DNA of 62,694 bases, the filler included, from a bacterium (GTDB taxonomy: Bacteria > UBP15 > UBA6099 > JAJRTR01): NCBI GenBank assembly GCA_024278215.1. It is 6 parts of 6 records of this genome, joined end to end, with 100 filler letters (N's around TTAATTAATTAA, not from the genome) between each part and the next. Parts side by side here need not be neighbours in the genome. Positions count along the whole stretch, not along the records: positions 45,145 to 52,281 come from JAJRTR010000042.1; 5 more parts are not named here. One strand, 5' to 3'. The stretch's first letter is position 1; the number at the start of each line of letters is the position of its first letter. The notes below the pieces were generated by a model. It searched no databases. It saw nothing but the letters and a program-made list of their open reading frames with translations, and was not told the DNA's origin. The position numbers and the translations under genes are program-made. Positions 5,914 through 52,281 of this stretch are shown here, one piece after another.

Positions 5914-6054
5914 GCAATTGTCAACAGCTGCGTTGTCGGCACAAAATCATCCTCGACGTACTCTACAAGTACGCCTGCGGGGATTTTGCACCTCCGCCTT
6001 GCTTCCGACCAATTTCGCTCGACCTCGCTTCGAACATAATTTTGCAACTGGCTC
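5914..6054. repeat. Repeat family A, truncated at contig start
   Basis: Core CCTCGACGTACTCTACAAGTACGCCTGCG and right terminus AATTTTGCAACTGGCTC. Confidence 0.93.
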
Positions 6055-18025: not shown

Positions 18026-18184
18026 GAGCCAATTGCAGAATTCTGCTATTGTCCATAGCGGCGTTGACAGCGCGAAATTGTCCTCGACGTACTCTACAAG
18101 TACGCCTGTGAGGATTTTACACCTCCGCCTTGCTCTGAACATTTTCGCTCGACCTCGCTACGAACATAATTTTGTAATTGGCTC
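18026..18184. repeat. Repeat family A, both termini present, short internal deletion
   Basis: GAGCCAATTGCAGAATT...AATTTTGTAATTGGCTC followed by TA. Confidence 0.95.
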
Positions 18185-35982: not shown

Positions 35983-36158
35983 GAGCCAATTACAAAATTC
36001 TGATTCTGCTGCGGTCGGCTGCTATTGTCCATAGCTGCGTTGTCGGCGCGAAATCGTCCTCGACGTACTATATAGCACGCCTGCGAGGATTTTACACCTC
36101 CGCCTTGCTCTGAACAATTTCGTCGACCTCGCTACGAACATAATTTTGCAATTGGCTC
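35983..36158. mobile_element. Repeat family A, full-length 176-bp palindromic MITE-like element
   Basis: 17-bp TIRs GAGCCAATTACAAAATT / AATTTTGCAATTGGCTC with 1 mismatch; imperfect palindrome throughout; no coding capacity. Confidence 0.85.
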
Positions 36159-45144: not shown

Positions 45145-45265
45145 CGGAGGTGTAAAATCCTCGCAGGCGTACTTGTAGAGTACGTCGAGGACGATTTTGT
45201 GCCGACAACGCAGCTATGGACAATAGCAGCCGACCGCAGCCGAATCAGAATTTTGCAATTGGCTC
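45145..45265. repeat. Repeat family A, reverse orientation, truncated at contig start
   Basis: GCAGGCGTACTTGTAGAGTACGTCGAGG core and terminus AATTTTGCAATTGGCTC followed by TA. Confidence 0.93.
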
Positions 45266-45419
45266 TACTGCGTTGCGGTGGCGATTCGGGATCGGTTACA
45301 TACCTGTATTTTGCGCAAGAGGCCGGCTGGCCGGCTGCTTCCTCACCACTCACTTTCCGCGCCTTGTATTACAGGCATTCTCCCGAATTTTGGCCCGCAT
45401 TTGTGAAATATGCGGGCTA
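45266..45419. repeat. Repeat family B with its C cap, interrupted by an A copy
   Basis: Reverse complement of 51794-51944 at high similarity. Confidence 0.9.
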
Positions 45420-51725: not shown

Positions 51726-51823
51726 GGTTCACTCCAGTCGTAAATAGATCACACACTATAGTAGCGGATTTCGATTGTTACGAAAATTGTCTTTAACCCA
51801 TATTTCACCAATGCGGGCTAATA

Positions 51824-51963
51824 ATCGGGAGAATACCGTAATACAAGGCGCGGCAAGTGAGTGGTGAGGGAATAGCCGGCCAGCCGGCCTCTTGCGCAAC
51901 ATGCAGGTATGTGACCGATCCCGAATCGCCGCCGCAACGCAGTAGAATAGGCGTTCTCCCGAT
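51824..51963. repeat. Repeat family B, full 140-bp imperfect hairpin
   Basis: Arms ATCGGGAGAA / TTCTCCCGAT; preceded by a C copy and followed by further palindromes. Confidence 0.88.
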
Positions 51964-52140
51964 ACTCCGGATTTCTTTTTGAGAAATTCGGGCTAAAGGC
52001 AATACCGTTTACTTTAGCAACAATGATGCGCAAAAAAGCCTGTGTTTTCGCGAATATTGATACCCATACCCTTTTAAGTAAACGGTATTCGGGCTAAAAG
52101 TCAAATTTCAGGCATGTTCCCAAAAGGCTCACAATATGTA

Positions 52141-52281
52141 GAGCCAGTTGCAAAATTATGTTCGAAGCGAGGTCGAGCGAAATTGGACTAAAGCAAAGCG
52201 GATGTGCAAAATCCCCGCAGGCGTACTTGTAGAGTACGTCGAGGAAGATTTTGTGCCGACAATGCAGCTGTTGACAATTGC
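52141..52281. repeat. Repeat family A, reverse orientation, truncated at contig end
   Basis: TA-GAGCCAGTTGCAAAATT terminus; near reverse complement of 5914-6054. Confidence 0.93.

What the first reader, a model, noticed from the sequence alone, without database searches (positions are those of the whole stretch)
51824..51963. Two otherwise dissimilar hairpin families share one strand-specific internal-loop signature (CAAGGCG...CAACGCAG)
Seen: family B has CAAGGCG (51844-51850) opposite CAACGCAG (51935-51942). Family A has the same pair on its reverse strand (CTGCGTTG 36035-36042 with CGCCTTG 36101-36107; 5928-5935 with 5995-6001). The termini and apices of the two families differ. In both folds the motif gives a C-G pair, an AAG/A asymmetric loop, a GCG/CGC stem and an AA bulge at a similar position. 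Inference: conserved unpaired bases point to recognition of a folded single strand by a common protein, as with attC extrahelical bases or HUH-transposase hairpins. This is my best candidate for an undescribed system. I recall similar palindromes in other anaerobe genomes but cannot verify this.
Basis: partly seen in the sequence, partly recalled or inferred. Interest (0 to 1): 0.75.

Follow-up and report, generated by a model that had tools for sequence, protein, structure and literature searches.

The report
Jumping repeats sharing ERIC's folded core
Two small jumping-DNA repeats in this bacterium have ends from different transposon families but carry the same folded centre as E. coli's ERIC repeats, a centre kept across many bacterial phyla for a reason nobody has shown.

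Summary
The shared motif is real. Families A (178 bp, 251 near-full copies) and B (175/199 bp, 75 copies) are MITEs with 4-bp target duplications. B's ends match IS1380 elements (15/16 nt); A's resemble IS1182 ends (8-10/16). Stems covary across a dozen phyla. A model built without this genome finds A, B, 11 E. coli loci (10 ERIC-like) and 16 of 145 distant genomes. None of the transposase elements examined carries the core. Within the genome the motif decays like other bases, so selection probably acts on spread, not on each copy. attC and HUH models fail. Best guess (0.4): a host factor binds the folded strand and helps any DDE transposase copy the element; an RNA-level role is the main rival. 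The scan reported this core before on other DNA (e1-6589724); the IS-end assignments, neutral decay and an insertion hotspot beside the motif were not in the notes I saw.

The parts
51797..51992 (+). Family B MITE, long variant (the flagged copy); IS1380-type CCCG...CGGG ends
51793..51796 (.). Left target duplication TTAA (right copy CTAA at 51993-51996, 3 of 4 match; NTAN target)
51797..51817 (+). Left terminal mini-hairpin of B (2 nt shorter than consensus here); also occurs alone 133 times in the genome
51844..51850 (+). Basal motif, 5' half CAAGGCG
51874..51901 (+). 28-nt insert of the long B variant, replacing the left arm of the conserved apical helix
51907..51915 (+). Right arm of the conserved apical helix and adjoining GA loop strand (GTATGTGAC)
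51935..51942 (+). Basal motif, 3' half CAACGCAG
51967..51992 (+). Right terminal hairpin of B, ending in the inverted repeat
35983..36158 (-). Family A MITE, complete; GAGCC inverted repeats, flanks TATT/TATG; core 36035-36107
5914..6054 (-). Family A copy cut by a contig start; core 5928-6001
18026..18184 (-). Family A copy with an internal deletion in one arm
45145..45265 (+). Family A copy (cut by contig start) inserted into a B copy at the 3' edge of B's motif
45266..45416 (-). Family B long copy interrupted by the A insertion; core 45268-45366
52141..52281 (+). Family A copy cut by a contig end

Best explanation
Shown: A and B are non-coding MITEs, copied in trans by DDE transposases that leave 4-bp target duplications. 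B has IS1380 ends; A has ends of IS1182 pattern (weaker match). Both carry, centred between the ends, a member of one old structured core that also forms the middle of ERIC and of MITEs with other IS ends in about a dozen phyla. Inferred: the core is not a remnant of the parent IS but a passenger module that has taken on new IS ends several times and is kept by selection on the element's own spread, not by benefit to the host at each copy. Mechanism I commit to (inferred, not shown): one strand folds back into a rod, a widely conserved host nucleic-acid-binding protein recognises the basal loop, and this raises the rate at which whichever DDE transposase matches the ends engages the element, both as donor and as target. 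After insertion copies decay neutrally by point change and deletion.
For: MITE anatomy: flanks match 4 of 4 in 123 of 206 A copies and 25 of 64 B copies, with NTAN targets for B. Partner ends: IS1380 loci L223 (15/16 to B's left end, same TTAA flank) and L206 (13/16 to B's right end) (L206 over the NCBIfam IS1380 cut-off; L223 PF13701 E 1e-147); five IS4-like or unclassified transposase ends score 3-8/16. An IS1182-like element with 21 copies in G043 shares ends and 6-7-bp duplications with 12 of 129 core-bearing matches, 9 of those 12 with a 6-7-bp duplication. An IS1182 with CAGGCTG ends and a 4-bp duplication (L213) matches another core-bearing class. Core absent from the transposase elements: no model hit in 25 of 25 loci or in two copies of the G043 element. 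Fold conserved outside the search pattern: first outer pair Watson-Crick in 67 of 71 (29 if shuffled), apical pair 2 in 69 of 71 (39 shuffled), G-T far above A-C; 88.8% of cells paired vs 21-39% for slid registers. Non-circular test: selecting on the apex alone, 50 of 100 de-duplicated metagenome matches have both basal halves at the right distance vs 2 of 100 control windows. No copy-level protection. No orientation bias in A copies within 30 nt of an upstream stop (18:19, counted). Core is centred (52+74+52 and 50+75+50 nt). 14 of 19 B-into-A junctions fall at the CTAT directly 3' of the motif, and 1 of 2 A-into-B insertions is at the same edge.
Against: No binding protein was identified and nothing here measures transposition. 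The long B variant lacks the apical helix yet has 43 copies of similar age to the 32 short ones, so the apex is not needed for spread in this genome. No leading/lagging-strand bias (A 54:62, B 14:21, on a weak skew-based assignment), which an ssDNA step at the fork might give. Wobble and purine-mismatch patterns fit RNA at least as well, and there is a weak overall sense bias (113:74 pooled, p 0.005). That subfamily-diagnostic changes avoid the motif in A (0 of 15 columns vs 18 of 163) is not significant (p 0.37). The motif is not invariant: one genome has variants with a T-A closing pair or a changed 3' half (G065). A's partner is not pinned down (best 10/16) and no intact IS1182 or IS1380 was found in this assembly. 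The 14 hotspot junctions may not be independent events. Empty target sites were not available.
Confidence: 0.4

Rival explanations
1. The core works as RNA after insertion: when co-transcribed it folds and is bound or cut by a conserved RNA-binding protein or RNase, which makes insertions tolerable or tunes mRNA stability, as proposed for ERIC. Ends and transposases as in the best explanation.
For: ERIC is co-transcribed and alters upstream mRNA stability in an orientation-dependent way (PMC2229807, passages read). Strand asymmetry of the fold is larger with RNA energies (A -80.8 vs -65.0; B short -79.7 vs -58.3) than DNA. G-U type pairs and tandem G-A are typical RNA features (own knowledge). 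Sense bias 72:45 in A (p 0.016), 9:2 in G010, pooled 113:74. Two copies lie sense in rRNA operons (L103, L125). Rfam V_AS5, an antisense RNA family, gives sub-threshold hits on 4 ERIC-like copies.
Against: A host-level RNA role should protect the motif in individual copies; it does not. Copies closest to stop codons show no bias (18:19); B 23:17 and G065 6:8 show none. A is enriched between divergent genes (65 of 205 vs 21.5% by length, p 0.0006), where transcription is least likely. Many copies have lost the core by deletion.
Confidence: 0.3
2. The core acts as RNA during spread itself (for example an RNA that recruits the transposase or primes a copying step), so it is selected in donors but not in landed copies.
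For: Reconciles an RNA-like fold with neutral decay of copies and weak orientation bias.
Against: No precedent known to me for DDE MITEs; no reverse transcriptase or other partner gene was listed beside 140 neighbouring ORFs; classical TIR and target duplications need no RNA step.
Confidence: 0.1
3. No function: the core is shared by descent and horizontal transfer, and hairpin arms co-evolve by template switching.
For: Neutral decay within the genome; the long B variant spread without the apex; palindromes can homogenise their arms (own knowledge).
Against: Between A and B the stems are unalignable (p 0.33; each ranks 111th and 119th of 123 for the other) while non-complementary loop bases and the 70-78-nt spacing persist; motif positions 0.73-0.98 conserved (one A/C position aside) vs 0.29-0.53 in most adjoining stem positions in apex-selected matches.
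Confidence: 0.1
4. One reading: the hairpin is a single-strand substrate of an integron-type tyrosine recombinase or an HUH (Y1) transposase.
For: Strand-specific fold with conserved unpaired bases; six Y1 transposase genes in the genome; 3 of 17 Y1 loci from five genomes have a core within 1.5 kb.
Against: TIRs plus 4-bp duplications and ends matching DDE elements. Only 1 of 6 own Y1 genes has a near-full copy within 1.5 kb, against 25% of all genes. No integron integrase over cut-off in three element-rich genomes. Copies are dispersed (4 of 326 within 100 bp of another), not in cassette arrays. No precise core excision among 24 short A derivatives.
Confidence: 0.07

Closest known systems
ERIC / IRU / RU-1 (listed as MITEEc1, IS630 family, in bioRxiv 10.1101/2024.01.18.576219; Rfam V_AS5 RF02818)
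   Same: Same central core on one strand: basal motif, apical CNTAC/GTANG helix, same spacing. Model R1 finds 11 E. coli K-12 loci; by eye 10 are ERIC-like, and L153 closely matches the reverse complement of the RU-1 sequence printed in PMC2759123. Non-coding, intergenic, long hairpin.
   Different: ERIC is about 127 bp with TA termini and is described for enterobacteria (PMC2229807); A and B are 175-199 bp with 4-bp duplications and IS1182-like or IS1380 ends. [quoted passage not shown]
Bacterial MITEs derived from an IS family (RUP/IS630-Spn1, Nezha/ISNpu3, Correia)
   Same: TIRs shared with an autonomous IS, target duplication, no coding capacity, many dispersed copies (PMC3184786, PMC2229807 passages).
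   Different: The interior is not a piece of the partner IS in the loci examined and is shared between MITEs with ends of unrelated IS families. A survey reported 97.4% of MITE clusters confined to a genus (abstract of bioRxiv 2024.01.18.576219); this core crosses phyla.
IS1380 family
   Same: B ends match IS1380 ends 13-15 of 16 nt, with an NTAN flank.
   Different: B encodes nothing, each end is doubled into a local hairpin, and the core is foreign to the IS.
IS1182 family
   Same: A has the GA(G/T)/CAG + 8 nt + AAAA end pattern seen in four IS1182(-like) elements (8-10 of 16 nt) and a 4-bp duplication like L213.
   Different: No IS1182 with A's exact ends was found; the assignment is by pattern only.
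attC sites and REP/TnpA(REP) hairpins
   Same: Imperfect hairpin, one strand with conserved unpaired bases (own knowledge of these systems).
   Different: No integrase, arrays or adjacent Y1 gene; TIR plus target duplication point to DDE chemistry.

Membership tests
Bacterial MITE | Terminal inverted repeats | tested here: met
   A: perfect 16-nt consensus TIR; B: CCCG...CGGG imperfect TIR
Bacterial MITE | Target site duplication | tested here: met
   4/4 match in 123 of 206 A, 14 of 29 short B and 11 of 35 long B copies
Bacterial MITE | Short, non-coding, multicopy, intergenic | tested here: met
   175-199 bp; 251 A and 75 B near-full copies; 8 A and 2 B copies fall inside called ORFs
Bacterial MITE | Autonomous IS with the same ends | tested here: inconclusive
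   Met for B in genomes of the same order (15/16); pattern only for A (8-10/16); none intact found in this assembly
Bacterial MITE | Empty versus filled orthologous sites | not testable with these tools
   No close relative holds family A (1 weak match in 40 relatives; 0 in the metagenome scan)
ERIC/IRU | Conserved central inverted-repeat core | tested here: met
   One model scores A, B and E. coli ERIC-like loci
ERIC/IRU | About 127 bp with TA termini and TA duplication | tested here: not met
   175-199 bp, 4-bp duplications, other ends; blastn of the flagged copy finds nothing in E. coli genomes
IS1380-family MITE (family B) | Ends matching IS1380 TIRs, short A+T-rich duplication | tested here: met
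   L223 15/16, L206 13/16; five other-family ends 3-8/16; NTAN target
IS1182-family MITE (family A) | Ends matching an IS1182 TIR | tested here: inconclusive
   8-10/16 to four IS1182(-like) ends vs 3-5/16 to others
attC / integron cassette | Integron integrase and cassette arrays | tested here: not met
   TIGR02249 over cut-off in 0 of 3 genomes; copies dispersed
attC / integron cassette | R''/R' core-site consensus at the ends | not tested
   Not searched for; ends are explained by IS TIRs
REP / HUH (Y1) hairpin element | Y1 transposase flanked by the hairpins; no target duplication | tested here: not met
   1 of 6 own Y1 genes near a copy vs 25% of all genes; duplications present
Rfam RNA family | Score above a family's gathering threshold | tested here: not met
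   0 hits in the window; V_AS5 at 23-45 bits vs cut-off 96 on 4 of 11 relatives tested

The most novel reading that the evidence does not exclude
A large class of bacterial MITEs, ERIC included, does not arise by internal deletion of an IS but by a free-standing structured module that repeatedly captures the ends of unrelated DDE transposons (IS1380, several IS1182 groups, TA-duplicating elements). The module is read by one conserved host factor that draws transposases to it, which also explains why other elements insert beside its motif. It would be a transposase-independent 'MITE engine' present in about one in nine bacterial families sampled.
Probability: 0.33. Interest if true: 0.85.

Novelty: new variant of a known kind. 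Interest (0 to 1): 0.62.

Why it matters
ERIC has been known since 1990 and is used daily for strain typing, yet its origin, its transposition and the reason for its conserved centre are open; a review states that no DNA motif other than its inverted ends was found (PMC2229807). If its centre is one member of a cross-phylum module that rides on the ends of unrelated insertion sequences, the usual picture of MITEs as shrunken copies of one IS is incomplete, and an unknown conserved host interaction shapes intergenic DNA in many bacteria. The pairing of core-bearing MITEs with named transposases (IS1380 for B, IS1182 for two other classes) makes this directly testable with one plasmid assay and a pull-down.

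Tried and rejected
Rfam at gathering threshold: no hit in the window. blastn of the flagged copy against E. coli genomes: no match, because the likeness is structural. First E. coli region fetched held no ERIC. Own-genome transposases (IS4, two IS1634, an IS1380 fragment) do not share A or B ends. Exact A-end scan of metagenomes: 0. Apex-only scan of viral contigs: 1 of 88 de-duplicated matches has the basal motif, the rest look like chance. An impression that the folded strand lies antisense to the upstream gene in the cross-phylum loci was dropped: by my hand count, 24 of 27 co-directional flanks were on + whatever the core strand, so the sample is skewed; the own genome and three others show no antisense bias. 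Replication-strand bias: none. Precise excision of the core or a core-less 104-nt ancestor: not seen among 24 short A derivatives. Kink-turn: the tandem G-A in A lies on the wrong side of the bulge (by inspection; own knowledge). Sequencing runs: none was listed, no RNA holder listed. Geobacter and Pelobacter repeat catalogues: motif not found in the supplements searched or read (three alignments); spaced-letter PDF text can hide matches and files 13, 14 and 16 of PMC2700814 were not seen. Rows dropped: L029, L074, L101, L133 (look like coding chance matches), L072 (duplicate), 6 of 85 cores with poor flank pairing, redundant cores above 85% likeness, and three gut-labelled metagenome loci.

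Full report
Observation. The window is six contigs joined by N spacers, all from one 4.55-Mb assembly of an unnamed bacterium. In that genome CAAGGCG is followed within 40-120 nt by CAACGC(A/C)G 221 times, with 172 pairs spanning 74 nt, 17 spanning 75 nt and a small peak near 99 nt. The single window copies fold no better than shuffled DNA, but the three consensus sequences fold far better than shuffles, and always better on the strand that reads CAAGGCG.

What A and B are. A is 178 bp (251 near-full copies) with a perfect 16-nt inverted repeat starting GAGCC; the 4 bases on either side are identical in 123 of 206 measurable copies. B is 175 bp (32 copies) or 199 bp (43 copies) with CCCG...CGGG ends and an NTAN target duplicated exactly in 25 of 64 copies and at 3 of 4 positions in 27 more. 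Only 10 of 326 copies fall inside called genes. These are MITEs. A and B do not align outside the core (p 0.30 and 0.88), nor inside it once the motif is removed (p 0.33).

The core is widespread and structured. The 80 record titles shown name organisms of about twelve phylum-level groups (grouping from my own knowledge): Desulfobacterota, Pseudomonadota, Bacteroidota, Bacillota, Acidobacteriota, Planctomycetota, Nitrospirota, Campylobacterota, Myxococcota, NC10, Saccharibacteria and Balneolaceae. From 124 matches I kept 85 non-redundant cores of 70-78 nt, dropped 6 with poor flank pairing, and left out 8 (one from this order, seven enterobacterial or ERIC-looking) to align 71. Positions outside the pattern covary: the first pair outside the closing C-G is Watson-Crick in 67 of 71 (29 if shuffled), the first inner pair in 58 of 71 (24), apical pair 2 in 69 of 71 (39). 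Departures are mostly G-T or purine-purine, rarely A-C, so the fold belongs to one strand. 88.8% of cells pair, against 21-39% in slid registers (related sequences inflate such counts). To avoid circularity I selected on the apex alone in metagenomes: 50 of 100 de-duplicated matches have both basal halves at the right distance with at most 3 mismatches, against 2 of 100 control windows. In viral contigs the same kind of test gave 1 of 88. The covariance model R1 hits 12 of 13 genomes of this order and 16 of 145 genomes from other families.

Link to ERIC. R1, built without this genome, scores A at up to 62 bits, short B up to 69 and long B 32-36 and finds 11 loci in E. coli K-12. By eye 10 are ERIC-like; L153 closely matches the reverse complement of the RU-1/ERIC sequence printed in PMC2759123 (passages), and a 20-mer from L152 occurs in 200 papers that also hold 'ERIC', '127' and 'consensus', the 8 listed being ERIC-PCR typing studies (search listing). 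The hold-out is imperfect: 23 of the 71 seeds came from loci whose organism was not shown. Rfam has no family for the core; V_AS5 gives sub-threshold hits on 4 ERIC-like copies.

Who moves them. No transposase, HUH or recombinase family was listed for 140 ORFs next to cores in 77 loci (best 5 families per protein shown). I therefore looked for IS elements with the same ends. An IS1380 in a genome of this order begins TTAA then a 16-mer matching B's left end at 15 positions; another matches B's right end at 13; five ends of other families score 3-8. A's end scores 8-10 of 16 against four IS1182(-like) ends and 3-5 against the rest, sharing their run of A at positions 12-15: suggestive only. Two other core-bearing classes pair with IS1182 groups: one with an element present in 21 copies in G043, sharing ends and 6-7-bp duplications (12 of 129 matches have these ends, 9 of the 12 such a duplication; about 16 of the 21 IS copies do, by eye), and one with L213 (CAGGCTG ends, 4-bp duplication). 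Further classes have TA duplications, and ERIC is listed under IS630 in a survey (passage). None of 25 transposase loci, nor two copies of the G043 element, gives an R1 hit; the hits are separate MITE copies lying near other genes. So one core rides on ends of at least two, probably three or more, unrelated DDE families and is not part of the parents examined. A relative of A in a planctomycete keeps A's arms with different ends (L082).

What selects it. Among 217 A copies the loop bases have 57 substitutions against 69 expected from base-matched columns and the motif stem 94 against 97; B gives ratios of 0.6-1.5 on small counts. One finer test counting only rare changes gave 139 against 197 for all conserved positions together, but its cut-off mixes private and common changes, so I give it little weight. 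Copies decay by varied deletions, and B leaves 133 solo 23-bp end hairpins, 32 with a perfect duplication. The simplest reconciliation is selection on donors, that is on spread. Orientation gives little: sense over antisense 72:45 in A (p 0.016), 23:17 in B, 18:12 in 30 classifiable of 60 copies from three other genomes, pooled p 0.005, but 18:19 for A copies within 30 nt of a stop; leading versus lagging 54:62. Against a strict requirement, long B spread without the apex, and G065 carries motif variants, some with a compensated T-A closing pair.

A hotspot. Of 19 junctions where a B end abuts A sequence, 14 are at the CTAT directly 3' of CAACGCAG, 2 at a GTAG in the apex and none at A's TTAT, although TTAT/ATAA is the commoner B target genome-wide (52 against 30 of 191). 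Both B orientations and several A variants occur, but the events may not all be independent; taking only 4 of 7 as independent gives p 0.009. One of two A-into-B insertions, at window 45265, is at the same edge of B's motif. This hints that the motif draws transposases, and offers a route by which a core could gain new ends. It is a lead, not a result.

Mechanism. Shown: MITE anatomy, partner ends for B, a conserved strand-specific core shared with ERIC, neutral decay. Inferred: repeated end capture and selection on spread. Guessed: a host protein binds the folded strand and raises transposase engagement (0.4). Rivals: an RNA role after insertion (0.3; ERIC affects mRNA stability by orientation, PMC2229807 passages), an RNA role in spread (0.1), no function (0.1), attC/HUH chemistry (0.07).

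Literature. Eight full-text searches listed no paper describing a core shared by ERIC and MITEs of other IS families; the library lacks most subscription papers, and I did not see the primary ERIC papers (Hulton 1991, De Gregorio 2005, Wilson and Sharp 2006) except as cited. Seen: passages of PMC3184786, PMC2229807, PMC2759123, bioRxiv 2024.01.18.576219 (its supplements are closed and could list such MITEs), PMC3543383 and PMC2700814, with some supplements of the last two.

Verdict. A real feature, a new variant of a known kind: MITEs with an ERIC-type core on foreign IS ends. Not an attC- or HUH-type system. Interest 0.62; 0.85 if the end-capture engine is confirmed.

Noticed in passing
window 52000-52090: A third MITE with CAAT-type ends like the genome's IS4 element (L002), directly right of the flagged B copy; 20 near-full copies in the genome.
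   Followed up: partly
window 7547, 10715, 17309, 19563 (minus strand) and 133 sites genome-wide: Solo 23-bp left-end hairpins of B, 32 of 133 with a perfect 4-bp duplication; hybrids of left and right ends suggest deletion between the two CGGG-ending repeats, but direct hopping of a 23-bp unit is not excluded.
   Followed up: partly
L125:301-373 and L103:301-373: Cores sit in rRNA operons, one just before a 16S gene and one between 23S and 5S, both in the sense direction.
   Followed up: no
L127: At least four ERIC-like units in tandem at 128-bp spacing.
   Followed up: no
PMC2759123 Table 1b (RU-2/YPAL): The printed Yersinia RU-2 repeat has ends of the IS1182-like pattern but a different centre by eye, so there may be a second shared core.
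   Followed up: no
G000:C121 and C150: B-left/A-right chimeras joined at a shared 8-nt word inside the core: a natural example of end exchange between families.
   Followed up: no
G000:C112:1-474 and C76:47446-49097: A CRISPR-like array of about 36-nt repeats at two contig ends.
   Followed up: no
G000:C130, C90, C123, C194 and many others: Several further multicopy intergenic repeat families (658 linked regions), some with REP-like palindromes; not characterised.
   Followed up: no
L156-L176 (G043): An IS1182-like transposase below the NCBIfam cut-off (197 vs 270 bits) in 21 near-identical copies with mostly 6-7-bp A...T duplications; close relatives by length and ends in G002 and G003.
   Followed up: partly
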